From Lingula anatina (Eukaryota > Animalia > Brachiopoda), in assembly GCA_051362555.1 (NCBI GenBank), contig CM120640.1:56646788-56710787 (forward strand): a stretch of 64,000 bases of DNA, read 5' to 3'. Of this stretch, positions 3,301-35,800 are shown one piece after another; within the stretch, counting starts at the first letter, position 1, and every line of letters starts with the position of its first letter. The translations under genes were made by a program, and so were the position numbers. The notes beneath the pieces are model-generated. The model saw only the letters and a program-made list of their open reading frames with translations, was not told the DNA's origin and did not search any database.

Positions 3301-6300
3301 CACTGCTAGAAATTGCCAGTCCACCATTTCTAGCCTTTTTATAAATATTAAATTTGACTCCACAACCCAAGTGTAAAATTACTGCTGTATTAAACGGTGA
3401 AATTTTATCAACCTCTGAGCAGACAAAGTTGTAAGATTGCTTCCTTTGCCTTTAACACTTACCTCTAGAACAGGGTATGTGACTGGGTTGCTTGTTTCTC
3501 TAGGGAGACTGAGAGCACCACTGTTGAAATGTGTGTCATGGCTGGAACCACGTCTCTTGTGCATCTTCAGCAGGTGTTTCTGAAGACATAAAAATCACAC
3601 AAAGTATTTAAAAAATATGCACATAACACAGTTTATAAGAAAAATAACTGGCACTAGGAATACATGTTAATTTTCTCAAAACTTTATGAAATACAGAACA
3701 CACATTTACAGCACAATAATCAAAAATTTATAAGCATTTTTTTGTTAAAAATATCAATTAAATTTTTTAACCTATAATAATATCAAAAACATAGAGCGAT
3801 GAACAACTGTACAAAGTCTTCCCTGTTGGTAATAGAAATAAATGCTGAAACTAAAAACAAACAATTGATATTAGCAGTTTCAAACAGTAAAAGTGCAAAT
3901 GAAGAGGGAATTTAAGCATAACCATAACATGAATAACTTAGGGTGTTAGGTAGGCAGCAAAAGATTGTTAGCCCACCACTTACATAATCTGCAGTGCTAG
4001 AGGGTGTGGCAACTAGAGATTTCTTTATGCTCTGCAATACTGGACCTTTAGCTTTAACAGCACCCTGTGACTGGAAAGTGAGTGGCAGCCAAGGTGTTAA
4101 CAAGAATATGTGATAATGTTTCATAGGGATGTTATTGAGGCTAAAGACCATATAAAAGTCTTGCTGGATATGAAATCCAAGCTAAAACCTAACTAATTGT
4201 GAAAACAGCTGTGTATATCAAAAGAGCTACCACGATAATACAAAATGAGACAAGAGAAAGCCAGTAAGCCCACAACCTCCCATTACAAAACAATGACAAT
4301 AAGGCCTACAAAATGAATGCTGTAAGTGTCCCTACAATTGTTATTAAATCGCATCAGTTATAAAGATTGTGTAAAATTTTCCAGGATAATATATCTCTAT
4401 GAAAGATTCCCCTATGTGCCTCTAAGTCTTACTTTTTTGTACCTGCCCTGCATGAGCATAGCTTCTGGGGTAAAAGATCTACTATGCTGTCCAGATTCAT
4501 CAGAACTCACAAGACTGAGAAGATTATCTGTAGAAGCCCTCAGCTTCTTTGAGGCATACATGAAAGTGTCCTACATGCAAATGGAACATCCAAAAATTCA
4601 GAACATGCTTCATGCAAATTATACAAAATTAATAATAAATTTCAAAGATTGAGACTTGTTCTGTAGAAGTAAAAAAAGATACTTGAGAAAAGAGGGGGGA
4701 CATGGAGAAAAATACCAATAAATAATTAAATTGTCAACATACACACCTTTATTGACTGTCCTACTGACTTACTTCTCCTGTGCTTGTTCTCGTCATGTGG
4801 GGTTCCCATTCCATTGGCTTTGTTAAACTGAAACCAACAGAAAACATGCCTGTCTAGTGAGCAACATCACTGATGGAAGGATAAAATAACATACACACAG
4901 ATACTGTTAAATGAGATGCTTTTTATATGAATCAATAGATAAATCAAGATTATAGTGATGGGGAAACATATTGGGGCAAACCCCATTGATTGTACCTGCT
5001 TTAGTAGCTTTCTTTTCTTGGTAGAGTCTGGCATATTCTGCACATGAGCATATAACTGTGCCAGCGCCACCTCGGTGTCTGAAGCTGCACCAAGTTCCTT
5101 TGATTTAACTCTGTCCACATATGTAACTGTTGTCTTCACAGCATCATCACTGTCTGGAGATGTCTAGTTAACAATTAATATAATTGACTTAATAACTAAA
5201 TAAATGTATAAGCTACTAGGGATAAGATATCTTTATATCAAAACAAATACTTTTCTAGATACTTCTGCCTTTTTGATCAAAGAAATGCTTTTGTTTCCCT
5301 TCTGGAACGATTATTATATCAAGCAAATATGGAACTAATACATTAGTCTGTACAAAAGCACAATTCACCCTTCTGTGATCCAGATCATCCTCACTGTCCT
5401 GCCCCAATCTCTGCCTTTCCCTATAGTATATGTCAATGTCATGAACCAAATCTTTAGGCACCTGCACAGAAAGACAAAATTAATACATAATATTGTATAC
5501 GTTTTCTTTTTTTTTTTTTCAAGCACTGAATTTTAATTCTGATTTTCTGATTTATAAATTTACTATAACTGGATTACAAGAACAAATTTGGAAAACGTGT
5601 TTGAAAAACTGTTTATCAGTCTTACCATGAATAATTGTGGGGAGTGCTGAATCATAAAAGAAACTGTATTGGACAAATTCTGTGCTGCCTGTTGGAGCCC
5701 AATGCCAGTCATCTAAAGAGAAATTAAAATCATTCAAAGTGTTTATCTGATCATGAAAGGACTTCCAACTCTTTTCATCTGTTTGATTGTTGTAAAAATC
5801 AGAAGAAAAAACTTTTGAATTAGTAAATCTTTTCCTTAGAGACAGAAAAGTTACTGAATTTACCATAAAACATCTGAAAACAGTACCCTATTACATCAAT
5901 GTTCCCAGAGTGTAGTCTTAATATTTCCAAGAGTTGGAAGAACTCGTGTCAGGAGAGAATATATTATATGGAATTTAAACCTTAGAACACACTCAACATC
6001 AAATGGCCCATACCTTCTTAGGACAGAGCAAGTGTGGGGCAAACATTGCACCTAAATTCTCAGCAGTCATTTTGTTCTCCTCCACACTGGCCACCTGGTG
6101 CAGCATGGTTAGCAGCTTCCTCAGCAGAGTGGCATTCTCTACTGGCAGCAGAAGGAACAGCAGCTGTACTGTCTTGATCTGTTTGGGAACCACTATGTTA
6201 TCAATTGTGACCTGGTCCATGCCCTCACGGATCATGTCTGGAAGGTGACTAGACTTACAACCCAAAGAGCAGAAACAGCATTTAAAAATAGCAAACCAGC

Positions 6301-7443
6301 CAGCAAAAATGTGGCTTTATTGTATTATGAAATACGTTAAATATACATTTAACTTCTTTCAAGTACAACATAATGCTTTCACAAAGTTGTTTCTCTAATT
6401 CCAATAATTAGGAATTCTACACAATTTTAACCTCAATATACCATTACAAATTTTGAACAAATGATTTGTAGAACAACCTGGCACTTGGCAATATGCAGCA
6501 TATAATCTCTCCATGAGTAAAGGTTCTGGTAACTCTCCCAGGAACCACTTTAGAACACAGGCACAGTCATGTGCATTGTAAGGACTGCTGTCCAAGTCAA
6601 GGGTGCAGCCTTGGGTCAACTTTTCTTTCAGTTCTTTCTGTCTTGTACAGTTTCCTGCTTTCCTGAATATTCCCTCAAGGGCTATATCTGGAATTTATTT
6701 ACAAATAATGTATCTTTTAAAACTGCATCATAGAGTTAATTTGAAAAAAAAAAATTGTTTTAGATAACATGCAGCTTATTATCACTGTCCAATACATTTA
6801 TAGTTTTCATGCTAATGTTTGTATCAATAAACATTTTTATTTCTACTAGTAATACAAAAGGAAACAAGAAATTGCACTCACTGTCAGGTTCAGAAATAAA
6901 ATCAATTAGTTCAATAATACCAGAGTTGCAGGATGAAAGATCTGTGTAGCTTGAACTGCTACCAGTTTTATCTAAAAATATATATACATATACAAAAATA
7001 TCAAAATATTTGTGAAGAATGACCTTACTACTGTTAACAATTAAATTATTAGTTGATGCATCTAAAATGATGTAATTTATAGTTTTCCATGAAAAGAAGT
7101 ATACAATATACATTTCACACTTTTTCTTTTTACTTAACCTCTGTTAAAATTATACTGACAGTCTGTTAGTTGATGGCAACTAAAATGATGTCCTTTAAAA
7201 GTTTTCCATGATAAGAAAATACAATAAACATTTCATACTTTTTCTTTTCAGGAAAGGCGTATGACCTTTCTTAATCTTGTTCTCTTCAGATTTTTCAAAT
7301 AAATCGTCCAAAGTGGGCATATCAACCATGAATGAGAGGTGCATCTTGATGAGGGCATTGAACTGGTCCGTGTCTTCCGTTTTCAGCTGGTGGACGAGAG
7401 CCTCGGCATCCAGCTCGCGCCTCTTTAAGCTCGATTTTGACAT
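379..7443 (-). CDS. ARHGAP19: Rho GTPase-activating protein 19-like, 15 predicted coding exons
   Basis: Phase-consistent GT-AG exons: 7239-7443, 6882-6971, 6478-6687, 6014-6237, 5626-5712, 5369-5461, 4996-5163, 4747-4827, 4433-4570, 3984-4064, 3463-3579, 2952-3071, 2098-2240, 1737-1854, 379-750. RhoGAP motifs: EGIFRKAG (arginine finger), VLKWFLGELPEPLL, NKMTAENLGAMFAPHLLCP. ARHGAP19-type motifs: LIKMHLSF and TEVALAQLYAHVQNMPDSTKKRKLLKQF. A probable 5'UTR exon ends near 7730. Confidence 0.88.
490..612 (-). repeat. ~30-bp coding tandem repeat (RHLDKDRDRN-type, 3-4 copies) in the last ARHGAP19 exon
   Basis: Units such as tgtccaaatatccatttctatccctgcctt and tgtccaaatatctatttctatccctgtctt. They translate as RHLDKDRDRN, RYLDKGRDRN, GYLDKDKH, GHLDNDANRDRH. 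Confidence 0.8.
7052..7248. repeat. Diverged ~80-bp local duplication covering an ARHGAP19 splice donor
   Basis: 7052-7130 (gttgatgcatctaaaatgatg...catttcacactttttctttt) matches 7169-7248 (gttgatggcaactaaaatgatg...catttcatactttttctttt). Confidence 0.75.
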
Positions 7444-8627: not shown

Positions 8628-11600
8628 ATGTCGTCCCAGTGTTCATTTCGTCAGACTGATGAGAAACATGTGACAACAGAAGTGGAACTAATGGAATGGT
8701 CTCCAAAAATGGACCTTTTGGCAGTGGCAAATATCCAGGGAGAGGTATGGCATTCACCCTGAATTGTAATGTTGTCTGCTTTTTGTAATCACTGTTTAAT
8801 TTTATTGTTATTCACATTCCAAGGATGTCATAAAATCCTTATGTCATACTTGTATCATATTTTGTAGACATGATAAAAGAATATATGAAAAAAAACTTTC
8901 AAAGGTTTTTTTTTAACATGCAGAGTAGAAATGCCTACAACTTCTCTCCAATAATTAATGCACCGTTTGCACGTGTCATTAGTCCAGATTATGTTTTTTT
9001 TTTTTTATTATTATTATTTCAGGTTTTGTTACACAGGCTATCATGGCAGAGGGTATGGAGCCTGCCACCTCCCACTGAGAACAGCAAAGTTAAAGCAATA
9101 GCATGGAGGACTGATGGAAAAGGTTTACTCCTTTATTTTTTTCTTCTTTTTGTGCTGAAAGAAATTCTGTTATCCTGGGTATTCTTAATGATAGTTGTAT
9201 TTTTTTCATTCAGTCTGTCTCAAAAAAGATTTGAAAACTTTTATTACTTGACCTCCGATTTAATTAAAAGTGTAGTAATGAAAAAATATAATACAATAAG
9301 AATATATAGACACTCAAAGGATTATGAAGGATTGTTGAAAATTGCGACAATGAAAGTATAGAATTTTTAAAATTACACTGCTGTCAAAAATGATTTATGA
9401 TTTATGATTGACACAAAGGTGCTAACTTTTGTTTAGACAAACATAGTATTTGAAAAAGGGACAACTGTCATCGTACATGTATGAATTATTCAAGTTTTTT
9501 TTCAATCTTTATTCAATTATCTTTTTAAAAAAGCATAGCAATAAAATCTGGCAATTTAAGTAAAATGCCACTTGTCCAATAACATTAGTTACAAGTTTTA
9601 GTCTCTCTTCAGTGTTAGCAGTTGGTTACATCAGTGGTGAGGTCCTGCTGTGTAATGTTGAGAACGCAGCCATCTTGCACACCCTTCATGTCCAGGGTGA
9701 GGTGTGCAGCATGCAGTGGATGTGTGACAGCATGGCACCAGCTGCAGGAAAGAAGTGCTATAAAGACAGATCTGCAGAATACCTACCAAAGATACCTACA
9801 CTTAGCAAAAGGTATTTCAAAAATCTTTTGTGACTTTTGATTAGTGTTTTTGTTTAGTAGGAAAATATGTTTTGTTTTTATTTGTTTCTTTTGTAACAAT
9901 TGTTGTAAAAGAAAACAATGAAACAATAATAAAAAAAAAATATTTTTAACATGTAGGTAAGAATGATTAGTTCTTCAGAAAAAAAACATAAGTCCAGGGA
10001 ACATAAACATCACAGAATTAACATACTATATTTTCAGTTATGGATCCCTAAGCAAAGGACACAGGTAATTACAAATGTGCATAACAAAAGTATAAATATT
10101 TGTTTAAAAGTTTAATAAAAATAAAGCAGAAGCTTATCTTGTAGTTATGTAGCAGTGGTATTATTTTGAGTAATTACATGCATACAAATTTGAATCTGTC
10201 TACGGATCTGCACCTACTTTTTTATATTGTTCAGCCACCTGGTGCATTGTTTTTTTTTTTCTCTCTCTTTTTAAGGTGGGGTGCAATATTTTTCATACGT
10301 TTTGTCTTGCACTTAGATGCTCAATTGATTAAGTGAAAAAATAGATTAAAAACAAAGTAAAAGACTAGAGATGATTAACTTTTCAAATCATTTTCTAAAA
10401 AGGTAGCAAAAGTATAACATATCGCCTAAGTTTTCTTTTTCTTCTATATAGCGAGGAAAATGTTGAAGATATGAAAAAATTAGCAGATCAAATTGGGTAT
10501 GTTCATTCATATATGTGTATTTTTTAATCATTATACATGATTACTTCTAATGGTATATCACAAGCATTTATATGTGTTGTTCATAGGCACTGTGATAGCT
10601 ATGATGTAATGCTGTTCATATGTACAATATATTGAGCCATTTGTAGTTATCATGATTTTCAATTGTTTATTGACATGTAACATTGACTGCCTATCTGATA
10701 TTTGTCAGTTGTACTTTAATAGAATTATACCTATAAATTTAGAAAAAAATATTGTCAAGTAAAATGCATCAGTCTGCTTTATGATGTATTTGCCTGAAAA
10801 GAAAAATGAAACTGACAATGATATCTTTCAGATTAAATATCCTTCTAATTGGAAACAATGACAGTATTGTAGAACTATTTGCCTATGGCATATTCCCAGT
10901 TGGAGCAGTAAATCTCAAACAGCACAAGAATACAAAGGTAATGGTGGCAAATAATAAAACACTGCATTTTGGTATTGTAGGCAAGTTCTTTTTAAGTGCA
11001 AAAGAGTTTTGGATGTTCAGGAAGAATTGAGAAAGATATTTTCTGTATTTTTTTTTAATTTTTATTTATTTATTATTATTATTTTTATTATTATTATTTT
11101 TTTTTTTTGCATTGCTGTGTTCCTACTTCTGAAGTGACCACAGAAAAATTACACAACAAAGGACTAAAATATATAATATAATAAAAATGTGATGTGGTCT
11201 TGTGATGTGATGTTATTTAAGCAAGCAGGATTGTAAATGGTTATGTTTCTGCTATGATACAGGCAGGCAGGATCATATCACTAAGTCTGTCTGAGGATCT
11301 GCACTTATTGTCCTTGATTGTACAGTCACCAAAGATGGAAGATCAACAAGACCAGGATGTTTATCTTCTGTCTGTGAGTCACCATATATCATTATGGTAT
11401 AATTTTAGCCATTGGAGAGAACATTGTGCTTTATTATTTTGATATAAAAGGACAGGAGTCTAACTGATGTTTTTGTGATCTCACTACTTACACAATCTTC
11501 AACATACCATTTTGAATTGCATCAGGTTTCTTAATTGTTAAAGCTATTTTTTAAAAATTTCATTGCAAAATAAAAATGTTTTGTTTCGGATTTAATTCTT

Positions 11601-14600
11601 TTTGTGTCACAAATATACCAAAACTATATGTTTATCATGTTTGTTGTTATTAATAGTATTATTATTCATAATTAGTTTGAGTCTACCCTTCTGGCATCAC
11701 GTTATGAAGAAGTGCAAGCTTTGGCTTTCAAATATGGGCATGTGGTTACATTACTCGAAGTAAGTTGTACATATTTCTTTAAACAACTAAATAAAATTAT
11801 TTGTTTGCCTATTGAATCAAGTGACCTTATTCATTAATATGAGAAATCAGCTGAACAAGATTAACTCAGATCAGTAATTTTACAGAAAAATGTGCTGACT
11901 TAAAGCCATGGGTGTACATGTAGCTATAGTCTTTCTTTTCTTCCCTGCTTTTCTTGAATTTTTGTTTATATCAGCATTTGAGGGTTATCATCAAACAAAT
12001 GTCTGAGGCCTGGGAGGATATTCTGCTGGAAATGGACTCAAAACTGGTGAAATTTGCTGAAGAAAAATATGTAAGTTCATATATTTCACATGTCATGTTG
12101 AGCTTAGAAATAGTGTTTGAATTACTAACATAACAGCATATGTGTTCATTAACTTGCTGACCCCGACATTTGTTTCTCTAGCAGAGATGTGGATTCTCCA
12201 AAGGCAGCCAGAGAAATCCAGCTATTAGTGTGATTAAACAAACTCTTTGTTAACAGTACAAAATATTCCCTATATACATATATTAAACACAACAAAAAAT
12301 GCATAATATATCAAAAGTGATTCTTTTAGTAAGGAACATTGAAGCCAATTAAAATACATCTATTAGACCTTCAACACAATTAAACTGAGGCTGATTTTAT
12401 CTTTAACCAAGGAGATGAAGCCATAATTGATGTTACTCAATCCTTTTACAACTGAAAGTATCCTTAAAAACTTAATTACAGTTCTTTCAAATGAATAACA
12501 TGCATTCAGATATTCAGGCAATTTTATTATTACTTTTCTGAAATTTCTTAGATAATTTTACCAAACTTTGACATAATTTTATTGAAAACAAGTTTCTCAA
12601 ATTATATATTTTTCCTTGAAGTCCTTTCTATGATATTACTTAAAAACACTAAATATCTGGATGTTAAACATGGCTCTTCACATATTTAGTATTTTTGTTA
12701 CAATATTTGCATTGCAGATGTTGGGGACAGGTACTGTGAGCAATGATTTCCTTGAGCTATTGCTGTTTGGAACTCCTAGGTGATGTATTTTCACTGTCTA
12801 TTCTTGTGTGGCATAGATACTTGATTGACAGTAAAGTGACATGAATATTTTAAAGGATGTTTCTCAAACAATTTTTTAGTTCATTAAGCAGTTTTTATTG
12901 CAAAGATTTTTATTTTACGAGCTGATATGAACATTTTAAGCATTATTATATTGTGTTTAATTTTAGTGATGAGTTGCAGTCCTTCCTTCTTCATGACTTG
13001 ACAGAGAAGGTATGTCCATAGTTTGTAGTTTATAAATATAAGCAATAAGTAGTGGATTTTGCTCATTGTCATTGATGTCCAAAAGCATGTTATCTTCATT
13101 AATAAAAAAAGATGACTTGAACTGAAATGTCACTATAGCACGCAAGGGCTATACAGATAAATTATAAGTCAAGGAAAAGCATATGTTGATTTGGTGACAG
13201 GGTTTCTAGGTCGTAGTAATGATCTGCTTTGCGTATCAATGGACGATCATTCACTTCAGCAAGTACACTAAGTAATGTCTCGTCATCCACTAATCTATTC
13301 CCCAAGATTGAATGCATGATTTTCCGTACTGATCTGATTTAACACTCCCATACGCCGCCTGCATGGCTTGCACTTGGAGGATTGAAATGCCATTGAAAGT
13401 TGCGTTGTAACAGAGAATCGTCGATTTTTTCTTGATTCCACTCCTGTAAAATGCGTTTAAGATCTGCTTCTGCACTTCTGAAATTGGTCCCGATATCACT
13501 GAATATTTCACACAGTGGTCCTCGTCGACTAATAAAATGCAAAACCACTTGTATGAATGAATCTGATGCCAGATTAAAGGATATCTCTAAATGCACTGCT
13601 CTTGTTGCCATACATGTAAAAATGCAACCATACTGCTTGTTTGTTCCTCTTCTGCATTTCATTAATAGCAGTCCAAAGTAGTCTACATCAACAATGAAAT
13701 GGTGGGTTCCCTGGAGTCACACGACTTCTTGGAAGTGGGGCTTTTAGCTCTTGCTCACGGTATCGACCCCTTAGTTCGGCTTCTGCTTCTTCAAATTCCA
13801 ACTGAGCATTAGCCATAGCAAGTGCTGCTTTTGTCTTTTGAGATTACGATACTGAATACAAACTGTTGGTTTTGAATTATCTATGGGATGGTCCAAAATC
13901 AACTAAGCTGCCGTGATAAGCCATGGTGGAAATTTCAGTGGGATGATAGAAGTGTTTTTACTTTATATAGCACGCAAGGGCTATACAGATAAATTAAAAG
14001 TCAAGGAAAAGTGTATGTTGTTCACTGGTCCTTGGTTTTATTTCACGCAGGAATTCACAAGACACGTAAAAACTAAAAAAAAAAAAAACAAAACAAAAAG
14101 AAAATTACAATAATGCCCTCACTACCAGTTATTTACGTGCTTAAATTTTTACATAAAAATGATAAATTTCAGTAATTATCAATAGTCAATAATAATCAAT
14201 ATTAACAGTATTAAAAACTCACCATTTCTGCCATTCCTTTGACTATAAATTGCAAGTAGCAAAAGTGAAAATAGCTGATCAAAAAGAAAGAGTACACTAT
14301 GTGTTCCTCCTACGGAGACACTGTGCTGAATGAAATAAAAAGCAAACTCGTGGGGCACCACCCTGAATGAAAAGCTGTCATATGCAAATGAATGTTTATT
14401 GCATTAGTTGAGCCAGTCACCTGGCTCCTCAACCTCAATAAAAGTAAACTAAACATTACAGTCACCTTTGTTTGGCCTCATCTTGTTATTCTATGAATGT
14501 TTTAAAGTTTGAGAAATTCACACTTTATGTAATATTTAATACTTTTTCCTTTAACTTCTTAGGGTTTAAAGAAATTGGGTCATTCCATAGAAACATCCTA

Positions 14601-17600
14601 TTCTAATATACAAAAACTGGTGTTGAAGCATTTACAGAGGTAAGTGAAAGCATAGTAGAAAAATTAAATGTCACATGTACACGAATAAAAAGCATCACGG
14701 ATTTCTTTAAATATATATCTGAAGTGTATTATAATGCTTCTAATTATGCCTTATTATTTATGAAATATTTGCTCTTGTTTTCCAGTGTAACCCAAGCACT
14801 CATTTACCATTTGAATGAGATAGCAGGGATGGCTAGTTGGTATGATAGATTTGGTCTGCTCGGCTTGTCCAGTCCCAGCGTACAAGAGGCTGTTCAAATG
14901 GCAGGAGCTTTTATGCTGAAAGCAGTAGAACTGCAGCAGTAAGTTGAAACAGTCATTTCTGATCACTTTTTCTATTTCCTTTGAAATAGGCAAAGATTGA
15001 TGAAACTCTGTTAAGTTATAGTTATGCAAAATATATTTTATTGTCTTATTTCTTAGGGTCATTGATGGGAGCATGAAAAATTTCAAAGCATTCTTTAGAT
15101 GGCTGTATGTTGGTATGTATATAAGTTGAAAATATGAGGCTTGATTAAACTTCACTTGAAGTCCTATAATTATCTTCAAAATATTGAGGCAGAATTCTTT
15201 ACAACATCCACATATTTTATCTCTTGTTTGAATCCAATTATGTACTTTTTTCATAAAAAAGCATGTAGCTTTTTTAATTACTACCTGTAGTGTTAGTTAT
15301 GATTAATTAGACTTAAGGAATATTTAACTGAATTACAAACTTAACTTAAAATATGTATTTTTATTTATTTAGTGATTCAGAGGCTGTCCCAGGAAGCTAT
15401 CCCAGCAGAGCTCAGCAAAGTATGGGTGATAGAATATAGATTGTAAACCTTTTTGACTGTTAATGTTTTCTTTGAGAGATTTTTAAATATTATTAATGAA
15501 AATGTCTTTGCCATGTAAATGTGTGTTAAACAAATATTTTATAAGTATTCAAATGTTACTTTTATTGAATTTTTATTATTTTGTCCACTTTTACCTAATT
15601 ACGATTGTCTTTTCTATAGATGACTCAACAAGATTTGAACTTTGTCACAGATTTCCTAAAGGAATATTTTACTGAGGTAAGTTGTTCAGTGTCCAAGACA
15701 AATGGTGGCTATAATATAATTCCAGAATTATTTGAAGCAACTTCAAATGTAATGAAATTGTCTGTCACCCATTATAATGTGATAATGTTAAACTGATTTT
15801 ACCTGGAGAGGTCTATAAGTCTGAAAAATTAATTTTCTTCTACTTATTACTTTTTGCAAAAGGGCAATTTCCTCCACAGGTTAAGCTAAGTCTGGACCAT
15901 TTGCTTATTTTTATAATCAATATAGCGCATTATGTCCATAATCCTTATTTGATTTTAGGAAATGGATGGCAGCTGTAAATCAGGATTCAAATTAGAAAAA
16001 GTGGGGCAGGTAATTATTTATGTTTTCTTTTTTATTATGATAGATTTTCTCTCATTCACATAATGTTTGGAGTATTTTTGAAATAGTTAAAGGGATAATA
16101 ACTCTTCATATGAGATCTATATTTCACAATAAAAACATTGTGAATAACTCATAGAAATATAATATATTCTGTTTAACCACAAAAACGGCAGTTATAGCTA
16201 TTATTCTGATATCTGAGCTTGTCTTTAGACCACGTGACCTCCATTGATGGCTATACTCTGTTAAAATCTCTTAAGAGATTTTAACAAAAAACCAAACTTT
16301 TTAGAAAAAAACCAGGGACTAACTTTGAATGTAAAAATGGATTCATTAACCATTGGTAAGTATGAGAAAATTGTTGTTCACTCCAGGAAAATTCATTTTT
16401 TGGCCAAAATGAAGAGTCATTATCACTTTAAGTACAATAGTGAAGTTATAAAAACAGAACTTTAAACTTAAATTTAACTTCAGTACTTGAAACATGAAGA
16501 GCTCCAGGAACCTCTTCCAAACACAGATAATCCATGGCTGAAGTTTGTCAATTCTAGTCAGCTGTTGCAAGGTGAGGTTACTTTAATTACTTTGACTTGA
16601 CAGTAAATTACAAATGTAAGTAATTTTTTGTTTGTTTTAATGTTTTTGGCGCTCAAAACTTTTTATGTAATGCTTTCTGTCATTAATTGTTTTATTTTAT
16701 TGTCAGTATGTTTTAAAAATGTTGTTTATATTATCTTTGACATTTATTTTAGAAAGCCCAGTGCTGTTCAAACCGCAAGTCAGACAGTCCTTGGTCCAGG
16801 TGGAAGATAATCTAAGAACTGCGATAAATGTTGCTCTTACTAAACCCTCTGTAAGTATTTTATACATTTTTTGAAACTGCAACAATATGCTTGCACGCGT
16901 TTGCAGATTCACAGCAGTGTATGTCACTATTATTTAAACAGGTCTACTATTCACATTACTTAAGCAGTGGTAGAAATTATTATGATGCAAACAAACAGCT
17001 TGTGCATTGATTTCTTTTCCAAAGCTGCTTGACATAATAATGGTGTGAAAAATGTAAAAGTTATTTTATATTACATATCACTAGAATGCTTTTAAAATTG
17101 TGAGCAGAATTGACATCAGATATGTGTTTGACACTTAATTTCTTTTCAGTAATATACAACATTTCTGTTTTAGAGTGCAATCGGGCAATCTTTACAATGC
17201 AGTGGATCTTCTTATCTGTTCACATATCAAAATATGTAAGTATATCAGTAACAGTAGCAAACAATTTTGTTGCATTACAGAAATAATTATGTACATGTAT
17301 ATAGCAGAAATTATGGTTGTTCATTCACTTAAACCTTAAGTAGCAAGTTTATATTAATTTATCTGTTTTATTTTTATGTGTGACATTTTCTTTTACAGGG
17401 ATGAAAAAGAAGAAAAAAATAAACTACTCAAACCAAAGTTTACACAGTGAGTTTTTTTTTTTTTTCTCTTTTCTTTTGGCAAAGGCAAGTTTCAAAACAT
17501 AGTTGCTTCCTCATGCCCATAAATTATGTGTAATTTGTTACCAAAAGGCCAAAGAAAACCACTTCTGTCATTTGAACGGTTTAAAAACTCCTTTCATAAG

Positions 17601-18743: not shown

Positions 18744-21700
18744 CAGCAGTACAGAAAACACTTTGCATCACCAATAATTCCCCTCTTTATACATGGTTTA
18801 AGGGACATAATGCAGATATCATGCTAAATGAACATATGTATTACAATGTTGCCTGTGGTAGAAAATGTTAGTATTGCCTAGCGAATAATGACACATTGCT
18901 CAGAGGAAGCTCTTTGAAATCACTACTAGTTTTCCTGTTGGTTGTATTTATGGTCAGTAAATGATTATACCTTCTGGTCATCTAACTCCCCAGATGACCA
19001 GTGGCTTACTGATCAAGGCAGACGCATGTTAATGTCATAAGTTAGAATGAATATAAGGCTTCATTCACATGGAATGTCTATTTTCAAAAAATCTATTTTC
19101 TATTCGCGCTATCTTATGATCACGGTCTGTGCCCTGAATATCCCGCGGCGTAATTACTGGCAGCGCGAGCCAGTTACTTATAGTAACTTATAGTAACTGG
19201 CTCGCGCTGCCAGTAATTACGCCGCGGGATATTCAGGGCACAGACCGTGATCATAAGACATACCGCAAATAGAAAATAGAATTTAGAAAATAGACATTGC
19301 ATGTGAATGAAGCCTAACTCACTGAATAATGCTTATTAGCATAGTTCTGGTCAGATGACAGAAAGGGATGCAGAACAAACAGAATGACTTCTTTAATGTT
19401 ATGATTTTAGAATTAAAGATTGCAGTTGGTCATGTAATTCTATAAATATGATACTTGGGTATAAAATTGTTTTATATATTTTCTTCTCCATTGCCATTTT
19501 TTTTATTTACAACACTGATTTCTTTGGCGATATGCTAATAAAATTTTATCTCCCATGCTGTTCATGAGTAAGTTACAAGTTAATAACAGGTGTGTAACAG
19601 TGCATTTTATCATTCATTTATCATATAAGCAATAATGCTTTGTACTTGATTTCTTATCATATAAGAAATTAATTGTAAAGTGTGAGAACTTTAATTATGG
19701 GACTAGTTCAATTGAGAATCTGCATATTTTAAGATACACAAATCTCGTCTGCTCTCCAGGAGCAGTTTGACTGGTCAGTTTATATCATTGTCTGCATCAG
19801 TGTATTTTCGTTTTCACTGCCTTGAATGAGCTCTGTGTTTGAAGTGGTGTTTAGGTCTGGTCTTGCTCCTAAACTTGTAAGTGGTGCTGTTGATGTGCAC
19901 TCTGGGATGCTTCTTGTGTGTCTGCTTTTTCACAGGACAGTGAGAATCTGGAAGAGTAAAATAAGTTATAACAAATGCATAATTATCATATAGACACTTG
20001 TAGTATTGAAACTTGGTATTAATCAGGTTTTTGTTAAGTCCAAAACATTTTATAATCAAACAATAGGTTAATTACCTTTAGATTACTAACTTATTTATCA
20101 AATTCAATTAATTACTCACACATATTTTTTCCTATTAAAAATAGTCATTATATATTCATTAGAAATTTAACCCTAAATACTTCATTTAAGATATACATAC
20201 TTTACATTGATTATTTAAAGGTTTGTGTTAAAAAGAGCAAATATGATATGGCCATACAGGAACCTTGGATTATACAAAGGCATGAGTTTTATTGATGTAT
20301 CACTTACAATGTTTCTACACAAACTTCATTTATCACATTAGTTTGAAGTTACCATAAGGTGAGAAAAATTGTTCAAGGGCCTCCTACCTGGATATCTAAG
20401 TGGATAATTAGGGGGATTTTGTCATGTGGTTATGAGTGGATTGCCTTATCACTTGGGCTTTAAGTGGTAGAGGACCATATGGTGCCCTTACCTTGGTTGA
20501 AGATTAGATACCCAAGTATTTGGTAGGGTTAGTGATTAGTCTACCTGTGTAGTGGATTTATTGCTACTTTTCACTTATTGACAATGGCAGAGTTTGTATT
20601 ACTTCAACTAATTTGGCAATATGTTGAGTGTAGTGGTATTTTGTGAACAGAACATCTGTTATATTTTTCTGGAGGTATATTGTGATGCAACTATGATACG
20701 GGGTTGAGAAATATTAGAACAAAGGGAAATGTACCTGTAGCAGGTTATGGTCCAGATGTTACTTTCAACGGATTGAAGATTTATAGCAAAAATTCAAGGG
20801 ATTTCATTTTTTTAATGTTTGGTCGTGATGATTATGTGATAAAGATATTGTGAAAGTCCTATCAGACTATTATGCAGTTTAATCAAGCTGCTACATTCCC
20901 ACACTCTCCTTATCTTTGCACGTGTCACACATTTTACCTTTCATGTTTGGCACAACAGAACCACAAGTAATATGTTGATCACCAGGATTTAAATATTCTT
21001 AATGGAGAAATGCAGCTCTTCCCCTTTATCTTCAAAGTTTATTTTCACATTTTGGTGTAAACAAAGATTATGATAGCAGAAAAAAAGATTTTTCAAGATG
21101 AAATTAAAGACAATATATTGAACATTTCATTGTTTAAGATGTAAGTTACAAAATAATGAATCTAATCAAGTGAATCTAATTCATCCAGAAGTGCCAGAAG
21201 TGGTTGTCTTTGTTGGGATGACACCCCAAAAACTTTATATCTCCAGGTTTACCAGATGTACACCTTTTTAGAAAATTGAGTTTTTTATCTTTAGTCTGTA
21301 GTAAGCCAATGCAAGTTTAAGTGTCTGTGGATTGTTTTGGTAGCATAAATGCACACAGATAAAGAATGTGGCACGTGCCACTTCGCAATGAAATTTACAT
21401 TTCAAAGTACACAGTTAAAAGGGACAGCTGTTTTGGCAAACCCAAATTACCATTAAAAGATGTCAGTGCATTGACTGTGTGCAAGTCTCATTTCCCATGT
21501 GAAAAATGACCTCACTTTAGCTTAACTGTCAGATAGAGAGGTGATAGCAACATATCTTGCATTTGATTTTCACCTGCAAATGTCTGCCTCTATTGTTCCT
21601 ATGTGGTATTATCTTTGATTTGTGGCATCTATTCACCTGCACAATACTAGTGCTCTCCACTTGATTGACACTAGGCTACATTTCAGATAATTACTTACAT

Positions 21701-24700
21701 CATAAGGTTGGTTGTATGATTATTTAGACATTCTATATTTTCATTGCATTTTGTATTTGCCATTCAGTTCAAACTTTTTTCAGTCAAAAAAATGGCTAAT
21801 CCATTTGATTTCTTGAGGATTTGAAATTTTGGTACCTTTTTTCTCTCCTGGATTTTGATTCAATTATTGCTCTTCTATTATAACTTAGTACATTTGACAA
21901 GGATGCTGTCTGGTCTTATTTTAGTTATGCAGAAGTTGCCACATGCACATGTGTCCTGATTAAATGTTTACTTCAATGTTTCAGTAAATAGTTAGCTCCA
22001 GTTTGTAATAATACTGTAACATACTGTATTCAGGGGCGGATTTAGGCCGTCTTCTGGGTCTTCTGGAAGACGGTCAGATTTTCAAGTTTACATTGACAGG
22101 TATCTATTTTTTTCTGTTGGAAGACGGTCAAAATTCGAGGATGGATCAACAAAGATAATTTGGAAGACTGTCAGAAAATAGCTCTGGATCCGCCCCTGGT
22201 ATTCATAGGGGTGTCAGAGATGACCACTTTTACTTATTTAAACTGCATAATTAAAAACGTAATTTGCAGTTAATCACAACAGGTGTCATGAATACACTAC
22301 ACTAAATATACGCATGTAAACAATGACATGAGACTCAAATCATCGATATGTTATCAGCATTTTAGGGTTCCTCACACATTCCTCATTTCCTCTCACAGAT
22401 AATTACTTGTTTTTATTGATATGATATATTACTGGCATTGTCTTTCTTTTTTTCCTTGTGTTAATTTAGAATTTTTACCATAAACTATGAAGTTGGTCTA
22501 TAATGGTGAGATTTTTAAAAACTGATTCAAAAATAGATGAGAGGCATGCCCCTCTTAGCAATTGTTTGCCTTAAATTTCTCCTTAGTTACATCCGCATTT
22601 CCTCCTCTTTCACTTCTAACAGCCAACAGTTATTTCCTTTCATGGGTCATAAATGACATTTTACAGTTTCATCACATCCCTGGCATTCATACATTTTTCC
22701 CTTTCTTACCTGTAAACTTGAAAGCATGCCAAGAGAGAAAAGGGCTCTCTATGCTTCCTACACCTGTGGCATAGGAATGAACTTATAGATAAGCTTAAGG
22801 CCTGGAGTTTTTTAAACTGCATGCAAATATTCACCCCCAGCCTATTGACCTCTCCTGCAGTATCTTGTTGTTGTAGTTTGAAAATGCCTGAACCCTGACT
22901 GAGACTTTGTTAATTTGTGATGATGCGCCTAAGCCACTTGTGTTTCTCGAGGCTTTGGTGCCACTGAAGTAGTGAAAATTTGGGAGAAGAAGTCGACATT
23001 AATGGGCTTTATTGACAAGATGTGCTATCTGGTGCCAGTAACATTAAGTAGACCAAAAACTTTCTGATTTGGAGCTCTAGCTGGTACACGTTAAGGTTTT
23101 TAGGCATATTGGCTCTAGGTTTGAATAGCAATAGATGTATTTATTTGAAGGAGAACAAAGTTTAATAATATGTTAAATTGTGTAGATGTTTACTACTGTA
23201 TGTTTATATTAGGTTATCATTAATAGTCCTATAATAGAAAACCCCTCCAGGTATTTTTTGTTTCTTTTCTTCATTTTTCATTTGTTTTTTCTTTTTTCAA
23301 ATTTTAAACGCACCTATATAAACTTACAAATAGCAAAAACAAATCACCATTTCTAATCTGTTTTCATATGAATGCATGTTATTTAACAAATTGCTCATGT
23401 GCTATAAATTTTTTAGCATACACAGACAATAAGCCTTTTAACCACACTAAAATGCAGAATCTCAGCAGATGTGACATCGTGTTGGGTTGAACTCTTGTCA
23501 TCTGCTACTTACGCCTTTAGCTTGCCACATGTTGACATTTTTTCCAGCTTTATTCTTTGTTGTCAAGGTTGCCAACTTTACACTCCCCAAACTACATAGG
23601 TCTGCAAAACCCCAAAACAACAGGAATTGATCCTAGAAAATGCATTGCAAACCCTGTGCTTTTGTGCAAATAGATAACTCATGTAAACTCAGTGAATCTC
23701 TTACCTGGGGTTTGCCATAATTCCACAGCAATGATATGGTGGCTTCTGGAAAAGTCTTTAATTTGATGAAAATGGTCACAGTCCCAAAGGGCCATATGAC
23801 CATCAGCATGCAGAGTCCTCTCTCTGAAAGTCAGCAGACGAACAATACCTTGTTTACCCATCAGAAATTTGGCAATAACATCAGGCCCACCACTGTGGAG
23901 CCTCAGAATGACAGGACTCTCATATTTTGCCGCTAGGAATGGTCCACTAGCTATGGCTCTGAATATGTAACGATGATTGTCTTTTCCACGTATAGTTTCA
24001 TTTTTTTGCACAGTGTAAGTGGGAAGATGGTTGACAACTGCATGTCTTCCTCCTATGGTATTGAGTGTATATGAGAGTCTCAGGCTGCTTGTGTTGTGTC
24101 TCCAGTGTTTAGTTTGTCTTCCTATTAAGGTGTAGAGTTCTGTGTCACTGTACTTCCCACCATAATGTCTGTAGCCTGGATAGTGAGCCTTTAGGTCTTC
24201 AAACTTTGGCAGTTGGAGCTTTTACAAAAAATGAAAAAAAAATTAAGGATTTTTGCAATTAGCTGTTGAAGAAGTGAACATAAAAGGAACTTTTGGTACA
24301 GTTTCCTGAAACCAAGTTATTTCATATTTTAATTCGATTTAATTGTAGAAATGCTTATAATTTGCTGAATCTATGAGTTTGTTTGATAAATCTCTTTGTT
24401 AGATAACATAAGAAGTGTAATTACATTAAATGCCTTTAAGGCTTCAAGGTGCCATAAGTCTTTTCTTACATGGTTAAACATAAATACTTACAGAATTTGC
24501 CATTGCTATAAAAACACTCCAAAAAGGAACAATCCATGTAAGTTTCCACCCCATCTTTTTTCCTTTTTTCTCCAGACTTGTATTTTTAAGTTCTTCTTCA
24601 GTTCATGAATATCTGCTTACATATGTTTAGAAAACTTCATTAACTGAGAGTTTTATCTGTCCTCTGTGCTTCAACCATAAAGTGTTGTTGTATTGGCTGT

Positions 24701-30700: not shown

Positions 30701-32328
30701 TTAATCACAGTTGATGGCAAGGCAGAAACTGAACATGTTTAAGTGGTCAATTATGTTAAATCATCCATAAAAATGCTATCATCTGTGATATGTCATAATG
30801 AACACGTTGTTTGCCCAGGGAGATAGTCCCAATGGTTTAACCTGCCAATCATTAGAGCTGTGTGCACCTGCCAGGTCTCACAAGATGAATGGGAACACTG
30901 ATTAATGCATCAAGTGGCTGCCCCCTAATTTTCCCACTGGATTCAAAATTGCTTAGTTTGTTGTAAATGAAAAAAAACTCTTTTTTTAAGTAAAATATTT
31001 ATATTTCACAATGAATTTTAATAAAATTAAATAATTGTGTACTAGTGACAGTGCTCCAAAATCCATGTGTGTGAAGAAAAAAAGTAAACAATGTTGCTTT
31101 AAAAATTATTATCCTGTACAAAAAATAAGATTACAGATTTTTACTTTCTGGTGGATAGAAAAGGAGGTGCCCTTTGATATCTAAGCAAATAACTGTTGAT
31201 TTTGCACTTTACCTATGATTTTGCCCCATAGGGATTTGGAACACAAATATTATTTTTGCTTTAATATTTTGTTCTTCTCTCTTTTAGTTGTGATACCCAT
31301 AAAATACTAGATGTTGCCTTCTACAATCAAGAAAAACTGTCTGTACTACTGCTAGAGGACCAGCTGGATGGGTTGCCTGTGTTGGCACAAGTTTCAATTT
31401 CCAACATAGAAGATGACCAGTTTAATCTGGTGCCAAGTGGACAAGAGGATTGTTTAACACAGAGAGATATGTAAATGGAATTCCTGAGCCCTTGGTAGCC
31501 AAAAAAACATCCAGTCATTTTCAGTTGTGTCCATTTTTTCATTAATTGCATTCAATGAAAAGTATGTTATTTTCACACAATTTCTCAAATGATTTGAAAA
31601 AAATATGGATGTTATGAGAAATTACTTATTTGCATAGAAATAGGTGATAGCTAATACACCTTACTTTTGTTTTTTAGTCCATTCACCATGTCTGCAGTTT
31701 TGAAAACAAAACACTCATTACAAAATATTTTAATTAATTTCTTTGGCAGTGTTAGGTAAAATGACAATAGCTACAAAAGTTTTAGCACATTGAATTGTTT
31801 CTCTATCAGACATTGTATTGATGCTGGACCCCCCATGGAGCCTATGTACTACAGAAGACTGGAGAACATGAAGGCATACTCTTTTGCTGTTAGTGGCACC
31901 AGACATGTTGCCTGTGTGGTAAGTTTATACATCCTGGATAGCATAATTATTTACCAAAGGCAGTGCACATTCATTAACTTTGGATAAAAAATTAAAATAC
32001 GAGATTTTATTGAAATTGTAGGCATTTCCTTTTTTTATTGTCTTAAAAACAAGATGTATACATCTGTTGCAGATCCTCGATAAATTACACCTTTTTAACT
32101 ATTGTAACAATCATCAGATCAAAAGAGGGTCATTATCTTCATAATATTTTTTAGTTATTTTCCTCACGTCGACGTGTCCGCCTGTTTTTGATGGATGCTG
32201 AAGATGATGAAGACGAGGATGATACAGAGCTGAGCATTCAAAGCACACAGGACATAAGTACTATTAGCAGAGACACTACGGAGGAAGATGACAAAGAAAA
32301 TACTGACACATCTGGAATGGACGGTTGA
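8628..32328 (+). CDS. ANAPC4: Anaphase-promoting complex subunit 4, 26 predicted coding exons
   Basis: Exons: 8628-8744, 9023-9122, 9613-9811, 10038-10064, 10452-10496, 10832-10937, 11263-11373, 11676-11759, 11975-12070, 12718-12779, 12967-13009, 14563-14639, 14786-14938, 15057-15112, 15373-15419, 15620-15676, 15959-16009, 16484-16571, 16753-16850, 17174-17235, 17399-17446, 17657-17758, 17938-18024, 31288-31470, 31810-31918, 32155-32328. All are GT-AG and in phase. APC4 motifs: WSPKMDLLA, LLHRLSWQRVW, MSEAWEDILLEMDSKL, LTEKGLKKLGHSIE, MKNFKAFFRWLY, AVSGTRHVACVLFSSRRRVRLFLMD. Confidence 0.95.
13128..14064 (-). mobile_element. Internally deleted BEL/Pao LTR retrotransposon relic (integrase core fragment)
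   Basis: The - strand encodes ...YGCIFTCMATRAVHLE...FISRRG...IFSDIGTNF...WHFNPPSASHAGGVWE, typical of BEL/Pao integrase. A ~55-bp direct repeat (atagcacgcaagggctatacagataaatt...) at 13136 and 13967 is a likely LTR remnant. Boundaries are approximate and no clear TSD was found. Confidence 0.85.
16091..16427. mobile_element. TTAA-flanked MITE (Kolobok/piggyBac-like), copy 1
   Basis: TIRs agggataataactcttca ... tgaagagtcattatcact, with TTAA on both sides. Homologous to 43528-43836 and ~55508-55845. Confidence 0.8.
18700..18738. repeat. (GA)n microsatellite
   Basis: gagaga... run. Confidence 0.95.
19057..19314. mobile_element. Almost fully palindromic MITE (PIF/Harbinger-like), copy 1
   Basis: ggcttcattcacatg...catgtgaatgaagcc with TAA TSD. 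The arms pair almost to the centre (gccagttacttatagtaacttatagtaactggc). A near-identical inverted copy is at 42231-42487. Confidence 0.9.
19814..24554 (-). CDS. Nested antisense gene: secreted Tae4/Dae4-like (type VI amidase effector family) protein, 236 aa, with Cys-to-Ser at the catalytic position
   Basis: Exon 1, 24492-24554: MGWKLTWIVPFWSVFIAMANS, signal-peptide-like, donor GTAAGT. Exon 2, 23705-24218: 514 nt stop-free, LQLPKFEDLKAHYPGY...HNTSSLRLSYTLN..G...GKDNHRYIFR...FLAAKYESP...LMGKQGIV...ADGHMALWD...VELWQTP, donor GTAAGA. Exon 3, 19814-19947: DSHCPVKKQTHKKHPR...KHHFKHRAHSRQ*. Phases 0 and 1 match. Motif order matches Tae4 as recalled: NxCxxRxSYxLN, YIYR, GKKGII, GHVTLW. Confidence 0.82.
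22031..22198. mobile_element. Small MITE with CAGGGGCGGAT termini
   Basis: caggggcggat...atccgcccctg, flanked by the direct repeat GTATT. Contains internal repeats of ggaagacggtca. Confidence 0.8.
24737..24745 (-). promoter_or_regulatory. TATA-like box upstream of the nested Tae4-like gene
   Basis: CATAAATAG on the - strand, ~185 bp upstream of the ATG at 24554, followed by purine-rich 5'UTR-like sequence. Confidence 0.35.
27576..28147. mobile_element. Non-autonomous PIF/Harbinger-like DNA transposon
   Basis: TIRs aggcccagtcacaa ... ttgtgactgggcct with TTA TSD. The interior is CpG-rich, unlike the flanks. Confidence 0.85.
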
Positions 32329-32831: not shown

Positions 32832-35800
32832 CTAAGAAAATTCATATATAGTCAATGTTAACAAGTAAAAGATGATTGTAAAACTGGAGTTGCAACTGGC
32901 CTTGGAGGTAGAAAAAGACTTTTTAAATTCTTTGATGTAGATCTGATACTCTGCAGCAAGTGTATCAGATGGAGTTTGTCCCTCTACATGTTTAACAAAT
33001 ATAGGTGGGTTTTCCCAATCAAACAAAGGGATAGCCACTCCTAAAACTTTACCATTAAATTTTCTTATAAATTCTAAATATGATAAATGTCTGTACACAG
33101 GTTCCACTCCATATATGGTCTTTAAAACTCCTGTTGGTTCCATAAGAAACCTATCAACAATTTCACTTGGGCGAATATATGAAGATACATTGTCATAAGT
33201 TAATCGAAGTAATGTTTTCTCAGGGGTGTATGAGATGTTAATAATTCCCAATCCTGAATGAACATAAACTCCTGTGAAAGGTTTGCTTTGTTCAAACAAC
33301 AGTTGGCTGCTTTGTAGGCTTTGTCGTTTCCACTCATGCTGTTGGAGACTTGATTGCTTCTGTTGAGATCGCAACACAATGCACGCTTCACGCTCATTAA
33401 TCTGTTTAGGAAATCCCAGCACAGCGTCTGCCAGCAGGCTATGTAATAACTTGTGTGCCACTTCGCTCACACCACTCCCAGCAGGTCCATTGCTATTGGT
33501 GAAAATACCTAATTTGTATTGAGGCAGGATGGTTAATTTTGATGTGTAGCCAAAAAGGTCTCCTGAGTGTGTCAATACGGGATCGCCTGCGAGGAAAAAT
33601 GTGTTAGATGTGAACTTTCACTATTACTTCGTATTATTTTGCAATGACAAAACAGTTGTTGTTTTTCTTACTCTGTTCTTAAGTTAACGTTTATACTTTT
33701 AATACATAGTGACAAAACGAATTGGCTTTTCGAGCTTTTGAATAGGGTGTAAATTACTTGTTTATTTATAGTCTTTGCTTAGTGTACCAATTATGCTCAT
33801 AAAGTAGACGTCGCACGACAACTAACCTCTATAATTTCCCGTTCCCCAGCCAAGTCCGTAACCGTCTTCCACCATTTGTGTGAATTTATCGTTTTGCCTC
33901 ACTTTCGACATCAGTTGCTGACTTATCTGCTGCGTGTGTGTATCTTGCAGCAATTCGGAGTTAATCAGCTGATGGCCATCAAGGCTTTTGCCTGCACTGA
34001 CGTGAAATTTCAGCCATTTTACCATGTCGGCTGCTGTAGAGCATATAGAGTCGGCACCATCAAGGCTAAATTTTCTAAAACGAAGAAGTTATATTAAACT
34101 TATACAAACTTCCACCGATGTTTAACGTTATTCTGCAGTAATTCGCGAATTTTAATTCAAAACAAGAATTAGCCTAGGTACGTGTTTGAAAATGTCCCTA
34201 AGTCGTATTTTTATGTCAAGTAGGTGCTATAAGGCCACTTATTTATTTACCACTTTATACCTTAAAACTATCAAATCCTTAAATCCTAATCAACATTTCC
34301 TTCTGAACTGCGACTAATGGGTCGAGCAATGATTCGTGAGAGAAAATTCGTTAGAAAAATTTTTTTTCTCGAGGAAAATTAGATTTGGTGTGAAAATACT
34401 GCATAGAATGCGTTTGATCTTAATTCTTTTTTTAAACATTCTTCGTAGCGTTGTTTCGTGTTCGTGTTAACTCTGCAAAAAATAAGCCAATGAATTGTAG
34501 GCCTACTATAATAAATATAACAATGAATTGACACATTTCAATGAATCAGTGCCCTATCCTGAACCATTAAAGCTACCCTTTTTAACACAGCAAGTACAAA
34601 TAATTATAATTAGCTATTTATTTACCTATGTAGAAGTGGGTCCACATTTGCCACTGTTTCTGTCGTCCTAATCAAAGCATGTACAAATCTTACTGAATTT
34701 GTATGAAGCTTACTGGTGAAGGTCGTTGACGACATTTTAAGTGGATCAAAGATACGCTGCTGCAAAAGTTCTTCCCAAGGTTTCCCTCCAAGTTTCTCAG
34801 AGACGCGAGCTGCTAAGAAGTACATCCAGTTGTTGTAAATAAACCTATGCCGCAGCGGCGCAGAGGGGTGGAGGAATTTTAAACGCCTGAAGTAGACCAT
34901 GATTTGTTACACAATAAAATTATTCATTGAAAAAGTACACAATCTTAACAATAGCATGAGAAAATTTGAGACTATAATAAATTTATCCAGAAAATGGCTT
35001 GGGTGAAAAAAAAACTGGTGCAGTTGATGAGCAAGTTATGTCCTGTCTTATCATTTCGCCAATCTCATGAAATTCTCATGGAACAGAGGCGACGCTAAAG
35101 TAGACCTCTGAGGCTGACATCGATATTTCTTCCTAACATCCTTTTCAACTCAATTTTTATTGTTGATTTGCGTAGTACGTTAGTGGATACATGATCTATT
35201 TGCATTTCATACGACTGCCACACACTCGTTTTGTAATGTGCCACACTTTACTTGATTTATGCCACGTTACGTGGATATTGTCACTTTTACAGTTTTCACG
35301 ACCCACTTCAATATCTATAAGACATAAAATTGGGATGTTAATATAGATAGAGCACACTGGTTTTAAATAGAAATACTTTAAACTAACTTGTAAAATTCTT
35401 TCCTAAAAGATGTAGAGAAACGGGCAAGGTCAAAGCGTGGTAAACCCATGCGGTGTGCGAGTAGGTCACGAAGTGACGCAGTCTCTGAGCTGTTGACGTC
35501 CTCTAAAGAAAAGTCGTGACCGAGGATGGCTCGAATAGGAGTGTCCCATGTAACGCTGAAGACAAAAATAGATGAAAATAAAATAAACATGGTATCCTAA
35601 TGGTCACTCTGCATTTGTTCTAAATTTTTTATCAGAAACAGCAATTTAAACAATGGACAAAATTTTGTCCATTATTAAACAGACCTGCTGTTATAACAAC
35701 TTATATTGTATTTTCATTCGCTACCACTGCAAATAAACGGTAAGATCTTTTTTTAGAAGCCGTGCAATACAGCAAAATTAATAGAATTTGGCAAAATTTC

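What the first reader, a model, noticed from the sequence alone, without database searches (positions are those of the whole stretch)
19814..19947. Separate exon adds a His/Lys/Arg-rich tail resembling an antimicrobial peptide
Seen: the 44-aa tail DSHCPVKKQTHKKHPRVHINSTTYKFRSKTRPKHHFKHRAHSRQ has 8 K, 5 R and 8 H, no acidic residue after the first D, and two KK dibasic sites. Inferred: a secreted Tae4 derivative has no injection apparatus. A polycationic, histatin-like tail could bind LPS, teichoic acid, matrix or metal, or could be released by a convertase.
Basis: partly seen in the sequence, partly recalled or inferred. Interest (0 to 1): 0.7.

Follow-up and report, generated by a model that had tools for sequence, protein, structure and literature searches.

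The report
Dead bacterial enzyme with basic tail
This spliced, expressed exon gives a brachiopod protein of bacterial cell-wall-enzyme origin a positively charged tail that relatives in molluscs and worms also carry; the enzyme has lost its cutting cysteine, so the tail is likely an attached sticky anchor on a predicted non-cutting binding protein, not a released antimicrobial peptide.

Summary
The exon is real: reads join 19947 to 23705 in 5 of 7 RNA runs laid, the three-exon model equals Lingula anatina XP_013403138, and the composition is as stated. The interpretation needs changing. The Tae4-fold domain (Z 18.6) has Ser65 at the catalytic Cys; 0 of 52 clade members with that motif keep Cys. 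The exon's first residues (D-S-x-C) are invariant in 29 of 29 spliced relatives and predicted to fold onto the domain, likely as a disulfide. A variable linker and a basic Arg/Lys-His patch near the end follow (net positive in 16 of 17 non-redundant tails). The KK sites are not conserved, there is no KR/RR or furin site and no amphipathic helix. A fully basic tail is a Lingula extreme. Best reading: a secreted Dae4-like pseudo-amidase with a tethered polyanion anchor; binding is untested. I found no description of this clade, but could not read Chou 2015.

The parts
24492..24554 (-). Coding exon 1: 21-residue hydrophobic leader, likely a signal peptide (by inspection, no predictor run); phase-0 GT-AG intron follows
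   Evidence: joint 24218|24492 in X1 (20 reads), X7 (4), X8 (2)
23705..24218 (-). Exon 2: Tae4-fold domain, residues 22-192
   Evidence: Pfam PF14113 E 4.5e-8; AlphaFold model matches Tae4 structures, Foldseek E 8.9e-9, VIA Z 18.6, rmsd 2.1, 150 aligned
24087..24089 (-). Ser65, at the place of the catalytic Cys of Tae4; with Asn63-Thr64 it also forms an N-glycosylation sequon in this species
   Evidence: profile alignment to 4hff/4j30/4jur/4hfk
23796..23798 (-). His162, the retained catalytic-site histidine (29 of 29 tailed relatives)
23778..23780 (-). Cys168 (W-D-C motif), one of only two cysteines; likely disulfide partner of Cys196
   Evidence: invariant, spacing 28 in 29 of 29; the bond is inferred
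19948..23704 (-). Intron 2, 3757 nt, GT-AG, phase 1; apparently the same position in relatives
   Evidence: 32 of 33 clade members without the D-S-x-C motif show Gly (the read-through codon) at this place
19814..19947 (-). Exon 3 coding part (the finding): residues 193-236 and stop
19934..19947 (-). D-S-H-C-P: end of the folded domain, Cys196
   Evidence: D, S, C invariant in 29 of 29; mean pLDDT 83 for residues 191-200
19853..19933 (-). Linker, residues 198-224, predicted disordered; basic here, near neutral in its first half in most relatives; holds both KK pairs and an N-S-T sequon at Asn212
   Evidence: pLDDT under 50 for 207-224
19817..19852 (-). Distal basic His patch, residues 225-236, counterpart of the family's Arg-His patch (here Lys-His)
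19440..19813 (-). 3' untranslated region covered by reads (lower end not mapped); AATAAA at 19507-19502

Best explanation
The exon is the spliced last exon of a Tae4-fold (Dae4-like) brachiopod gene whose catalytic cysteine is replaced, so the protein is predicted to be a secreted non-cutting pseudo-amidase, and the tail likely stays attached and works as a flexible, positively charged anchor for polyanions. Shown: exon use, fold, loss of the cysteine across the clade, and the conserved layout D-S-x-C / variable linker / basic Arg(Lys)-His patch. Inferred: secretion; a Cys168-Cys196 disulfide that clamps the start of the exon to the domain; no amidase activity; binding of peptidoglycan fragments in the old cleft, as in the non-catalytic NlpC/P60 protein RipD; and electrostatic, possibly pH- or zinc-tuned, binding of the patch to LPS, teichoic acid or host mucus glycans, which would hold the protein on bacteria or on a mucosal surface as a recognition or trapping factor.
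For: Splicing and expression. Fold. Nucleophile position in the 62-protein L-W-[DN]-C clade: 52 show the motif, with S 32, A 14, T 3, K 1, D 1, G 1, C 0; the 31 clade rows put in the tree group together (87/96) apart from Cys-bearing bacterial and coral rows. Cys-to-Ala kills nvDae4 (bioRxiv 10.1101/2021.05.13.443009, passages). A subclade with Ala keeps the His, so the His is kept without a nucleophile. Only two Cys in the protein, both invariant with spacing 28. Tails: net positive 16 of 17, distal half more basic 15 of 17, best 12-residue window at least 6 in 14 of 17 against 1 of 14 read-through controls; R-H in the last 35 residues 12 of 17 against 6.1 +/- 1.8 in shuffles (p 0.002) and 0 of 14 controls. 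Tail variants 3 of 3 synonymous (p 0.007 by site count). Precedent: RipD, non-catalytic, peptidoglycan-binding, with a C-terminal repeat tail (PMC12067865, passages).
Against: No binding, secretion or activity was measured. The R-H pattern was chosen after seeing the alignment, so its p value is optimistic; this protein has K-H, not R-H; P0035 lacks the patch; bivalve sequences are over-represented. The variant test rests on 3 sites and is weak against the UTR rate (p 0.08). Ser stands at the nucleophile in 19 of 28 tailed members with His in 29 of 29, so a Ser-His activity is not excluded. Tissue and induction are unknown; one study's run (X4) shows no expression. Strict heparin-binding consensus patterns were not found in the tail. 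The Asn63 sequon could block the cleft in this species. Seawater salt weakens electrostatic binding (general knowledge).
Confidence: 0.45

Rival explanations
1. The protein has left immunity: the dead domain is a scaffold in host extracellular matrix, cuticle or shell, and the His/Arg patch binds host glycans, mineral or metal.
For: Catalytic Cys lost in the whole clade while the protein is kept in brachiopod, bivalve, cephalopod, annelid and nemertean records; many conserved His; low expression without known challenge.
Against: XP_013403138 is absent from the supplement listing Lingula shell matrix proteins, which uses these accession numbers (PMC13425148, supplement searches only). The characterised relative nvDae4 is immune-induced, as is its Cys-less paralogue.
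Confidence: 0.25
2. The tail is cut off and acts as a free histatin-like antimicrobial peptide.
For: Charge about +12, 8 His, disordered; histatin 5 is also short, polar and His/Lys/Arg-rich (PMC7559477, passages); one monobasic Arg with an upstream Lys (K205-x-x-R208) and two KK pairs exist; a beta-strand moment is above shuffles (p 0.02, one of two angles tested).
Against: No KR, RR, RxxR or furin site; dibasic pair at these positions in 2 of 29; no HExxH; the Asp-Ser-His is not a free N-terminus; a glycosylation sequon in mid-tail; helical moment below shuffle mean (p 0.80 and 0.89); 5 of 40 strongly hydrophobic residues; such density of charge is not shared by 28 relatives.
Confidence: 0.1
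3. A natural artilysin: the domain is still an amidase, using Ser-His, and the attached cationic tail helps it through the outer membrane.
For: Ser in 19 of 28 and His in 29 of 29 tailed members; Dae enzymes cannot cross the outer membrane alone (bioRxiv 10.1101/2020.04.10.036376, passages); natural endolysins often have cationic C-terminal segments (PMC12170589, passages).
Against: Ala in 6 and Thr in 3 of 28 tailed members; neither known position of the third triad Asp is Asp here (Ala164, Gln173; positions from PMC6277958); Ser65 sits in a glycosylation sequon.
Confidence: 0.1
4. Only D-S-x-C matters; the rest of the tail is drifting low-complexity sequence.
For: Tail length 29-141 residues, linker unalignable, one relative without a patch, two relatives end five or six residues after the Cys (P0038, P0041).
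Against: Distal basic patch across phyla, R-H enrichment, 3 of 3 synonymous variants, and a helix-plus-patch shared by Mytilus and Solemya.
Confidence: 0.1

Closest known systems
Dae4 (domesticated amidase effector 4), nvDae4 of Nematostella vectensis (Margolis et al., bioRxiv 10.1101/2021.05.13.443009 = PMC8713801; passages read)
   Same: Animal, secreted, Tae4-derived; that paper notes a second Nematostella homologue without the catalytic Cys.
   Different: nvDae4 has the Cys, cleaves peptidoglycan and kills Bacillus subtilis; this clade has none. The passages seen mention no basic tail. nvDae4's sequence was not among my hits, so orthology was not tested.
Bacterial Tae4 (PF14113; PDB 4HFL, 4HFF, 6IJF, 4BI4)
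   Same: Fold (Z 17.6-18.6), active-site His, R-x-S helix motif.
   Different: No catalytic Cys or triad Asp, a different cysteine pair, a leader exon, introns and a tail; the bacterial chains end where exon 2 ends (model range 20-192).
RipD (Rv1566c), non-catalytic NlpC/P60 protein (review PMC12067865, passages read)
   Same: Papain-like cell-wall hydrolase fold turned non-catalytic, with a C-terminal low-complexity tail thought to tune cell-wall binding.
   Different: Bacterial, another family; binding is shown for RipD, only inferred here.
Histatin 5 (PMC7559477, passages read)
   Same: Polar, His/Lys/Arg-rich, short; both strings open with Asp-Ser-His.
   Different: Histatin 5 is a free peptide with an N-terminal ATCUN and an HExxH site; here the triplet is internal, variable, next to a likely disulfide, and HExxH is absent. 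No homology is implied.
Artilysins and endolysins with cationic C-termini (review PMC12170589, passages read)
   Same: Peptidoglycan-hydrolase fold plus polycationic extension.
   Different: Those need an active enzyme and often an amphipathic helix; neither is indicated here.

Membership tests
Tae4/Dae4 amidase | Tae4 fold | tested here: met
Tae4/Dae4 amidase | Catalytic Cys | tested here: not met
   Ser65; 0 of 52 in the clade
Tae4/Dae4 amidase | Catalytic His | tested here: met
   His162; 56 of 62 in the clade
Tae4/Dae4 amidase | Third triad Asp at His+2 or His+11 | tested here: not met
Tae4/Dae4 amidase | Eukaryotic signal peptide (Dae) | tested here: inconclusive
   hydrophobic 21-residue first exon, helix 8-19 in the model; no predictor run
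Tae4/Dae4 amidase | Peptidoglycan hydrolysis | not testable with these tools
   needs an assay
Histatin-like antimicrobial peptide | Cationic, His-rich, polar | tested here: met
Histatin-like antimicrobial peptide | Free N-terminal ATCUN and HExxH metal sites | tested here: not met
   triplet internal and variable (His 4 of 29); no Glu in the tail; motifs
Histatin-like antimicrobial peptide | Released as a free peptide at conserved processing sites | tested here: inconclusive
   no KR/RR/furin site, KK not conserved; release by other proteases not testable
Histatin-like antimicrobial peptide | Antimicrobial activity | not testable with these tools
   needs MIC assays
Amphipathic alpha-helical antimicrobial peptide | High helical hydrophobic moment | tested here: not met
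   this tail p 0.80 and 0.89; 2 of 19 tails at p under 0.05, uncorrected
Non-catalytic peptidoglycan binder (RipD-like, by analogy) | Fold kept, nucleophile lost | tested here: met
Non-catalytic peptidoglycan binder (RipD-like, by analogy) | Binds peptidoglycan | not testable with these tools
   needs pull-down or calorimetry

The most novel reading that the evidence does not exclude
A bacterial type VI toxin gene taken up by animals was turned, early in lophotrochozoan history, into a non-enzymatic peptidoglycan receptor or trap with an exon-encoded Arg-His anchor: an unrecognised pattern-recognition family of molluscs, annelids, nemerteans and brachiopods, parallel to non-catalytic PGRPs but from a horizontally acquired toxin. 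The same last-exon slot carries a Hint self-cleaving module in corals.
Probability: 0.3. Interest if true: 0.75.

Novelty: new variant of a known kind. Interest (0 to 1): 0.45.

Why it matters
Domesticated amidase effectors are cited as bacterial weapons that animals kept as active enzymes. Here a broad animal clade kept the gene but lost the cutting residue and kept a basic tail, which suggests a second fate: from weapon to sensor or tether. The orthologues in mussels, clams, scallops and cuttlefish make it testable and relevant to shellfish immunity. As an antimicrobial-peptide lead the tail is weak.

Tried and rejected
Own-genome search: no genome held, so paralogues outside the window were not checked; none in the window (tblastn). 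No indexed RNA holder was listed; raw-read runs with the same species label were laid instead. Chou et al. 2015, Hayes et al. 2020 (Cell version) and Zhang et al. 2013 (JBC) are not held; their text and supplements may already show Cys-less lophotrochozoan dae4 genes. Paper searches for this clade, its accessions or a Tae4-Hint fusion found nothing relevant (listings only). PMC3759425 passages gave no mutant data. Pfam on the tail gave only sub-threshold hits; the Atlas gave no usable hit for the tail. Docking of the patch onto the domain: neither model orders it. Amphipathic-helix and heparin-consensus readings were rejected. An intron-retained form ending in exon 2 read-through has no depth at 23340-23556 in 4 of 4 runs. 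Whether the gene lies in an ANAPC4 intron was left open. No complex prediction was run, as no protein partner is claimed. The scan's own notes held nothing on this family.

Full report
Observation. The stretch 19947-19814 on the minus strand is a coding exon with an AG acceptor, in phase with the GT donor after 23705. Joined by coordinates with 24554-24492 and 24218-23705 it translates to a 236-residue protein identical to P0001, recorded as XP_013403138.1, LOC106168566 of Lingula anatina. The counts in the finding are exact, and 0 of 493 other stop-terminated 44-mers in the window are as basic. Of 9 RNA runs listed by species label 7 were laid. The junction is read in X1 (39), X7 (5), X8 (3) and, as loose ends matching exon 2, in X2 (20), X3 (19) and X7 (6). 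X9 covers the exon with no junction listed; X4 has no depth on the gene. Expression is low and the tissues are not given. The three variant sites listed in the exon are all synonymous (p 0.007 by site counts, but p 0.08 against the density of 9 variants in 374 nt of UTR). The four variants shown in exon 2 are also synonymous, from a truncated table.

The domain. Exon 2 matches Pfam Tae4. The AlphaFold model (mean pLDDT 82) matches only Tae4 structures strongly (Z 17.6-18.6, next 5.6). Tae4 uses a Cys-His-Asp triad (PMC6277958, passages). The profile alignment sets Ser65 against the catalytic Cys and His162 against the His. Of 100 proteins fetched, 62 carry the L-W-[DN]-C motif of this clade (P0060 left out as it groups elsewhere); 52 show the nucleophile motif and none has Cys (S 32, A 14, T 3, K, D, G one each); 56 of 62 keep the His. 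Named members come from a brachiopod, bivalves, a cuttlefish, annelids and a nemertean. In a tree of 47 selected domains the 31 clade rows group at 87/96, not a starred branch, apart from bacterial and coral rows with Cys (long branches flagged). Since Cys-to-Ala abolishes nvDae4 activity (passages) and a subclade has Ala with His retained, I infer a pseudo-amidase. A Ser-His activity is not excluded.

The exon's anatomy. 29 proteins continue past the domain with D-S-x-C. D, S and C are invariant, the spacing to the W-D-C cysteine is 28 in all 29, these are the only two cysteines in P0001, and residues 191-200 are modelled with confidence. I infer a disulfide; I could not measure it in the model. 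32 of the other 33 show Gly at the junction, the read-through of the same intron in unspliced gene calls, though a few (P0038, P0041, P0045) look like true spliced forms with Gly. Behind the Cys lies a linker of very variable length and then a basic patch. In 17 tails under 80% domain identity, 16 are net positive, 15 are more basic in the distal half, and 14 have a 12-residue window scoring at least 6, against 1 of 14 read-through controls (5 of 19 control rows dropped: 4 near-duplicates and the annotated P0045). R-H occurs in the last 35 residues in 12 of 17 (shuffles 6.1 +/- 1.8, p 0.002; 10 of 13 at 70%), 0 of 14 controls; the pattern was picked after seeing the alignment. In the 29-row alignment one column holds His in 28 and the one before Arg in 21. 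This protein has Lys-His there; P0035 has no patch. Lingula is the extreme: 50% K+R+H behind the Cys against 14-33%. The patch is disordered in both models; the Solemya model adds a helix at 280-300 shared in sequence with Mytilus.

The antimicrobial-peptide reading. The tail has no KR, RR, RxxR or furin site; a dibasic pair at either KK position occurs in 2 of 29. Histatin 5 depends partly on an N-terminal ATCUN and an HExxH site (PMC7559477, passages); here Asp-Ser-His is internal, His is at that place in 4 of 29, and there is no Glu. An N-S-T sequon lies mid-tail. The helical moment is below the shuffle mean; the strand moment is above it (p 0.02, uncorrected). A synthetic peptide this cationic may well inhibit microbes in low salt, which would not show a natural role (general knowledge).

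Mechanism. Most likely (0.45) the protein is secreted, its dead cleft binds peptidoglycan fragments as RipD does (PMC12067865, passages), and the attached patch anchors it to bacterial or mucosal polyanions. Rivals: host matrix or metal role (0.25; the accession is absent from a Lingula shell-proteome supplement that uses such accessions), released peptide (0.10), active Ser-His artilysin (0.10), neutral tail (0.10).

Novelty. Animal Dae4 genes are known, and a Cys-less homologue is noted in Nematostella. My searches found no account of this clade or its tail, but Chou et al. 2015 and its supplements could not be read and may show these sequences. It works like a non-catalytic cell-wall binder by inference; it fails membership of the active Tae4/Dae4 amidases and of histatins. 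Verdict: new variant of a known kind, interest 0.45.

Noticed in passing
P0070, P0075, P0092 (Acropora millepora), P0094-P0096 (P0096 Montipora capricornis): Coral proteins named 'desert hedgehog protein-like' or uncharacterised are a Tae4 domain (Cys kept, His replaced) fused to a Hint/Hog module. A Cys stands seven residues after the last Trp, as in the tailed clade, and unspliced gene calls suggest an intron one codon from the same place. A paper search found nothing.
   Followed up: partly
P0030, P0034, P0038, P0041, P0045, P0047: A supported subclade (97/92) in which 5 of 6 also replace the active-site His by Arg; two end just after the Cys, while the nemertean P0045 has an R-H patch. Possibly a second paralogue group.
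   Followed up: partly
P0060, P0061, P0087: Another Tae4-like group with both Cys and His lost (Asp, Ser), from unnamed records: a possibly independent inactivation.
   Followed up: no
window 32832-36546, minus strand: A secreted-looking serine beta-lactamase-family gene (PF00144; class C-like hits) with a hydrophobic C-terminal end, about 8 kb upstream of this gene: a second protein with a bacterial cell-wall-enzyme fold nearby.
   Followed up: partly
window 14607-14942, plus strand (and 8834-9361, 31265-31474): An ANAPC4 exon (PF12896). The stretch at 31265 looked from recall like a later ANAPC4 exon, which would nest this gene in an ANAPC4 intron, but Pfam and PDB searches did not confirm it.
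   Followed up: partly
window 19056-19315 and about 22030-22200: A long palindromic repeat just downstream and a short repeat in intron 2; both attract hundreds of reads from other loci, so likely small mobile elements.
   Followed up: no
window 5999-6316 (-), 45617-46237 (+), 61869-62255 (-), 13339-13716 (-): RhoGAP, MGAT2 and OTU-like exons; the last stretch looks from recall like a retrotransposon integrase fragment, with no Pfam hit.
   Followed up: no
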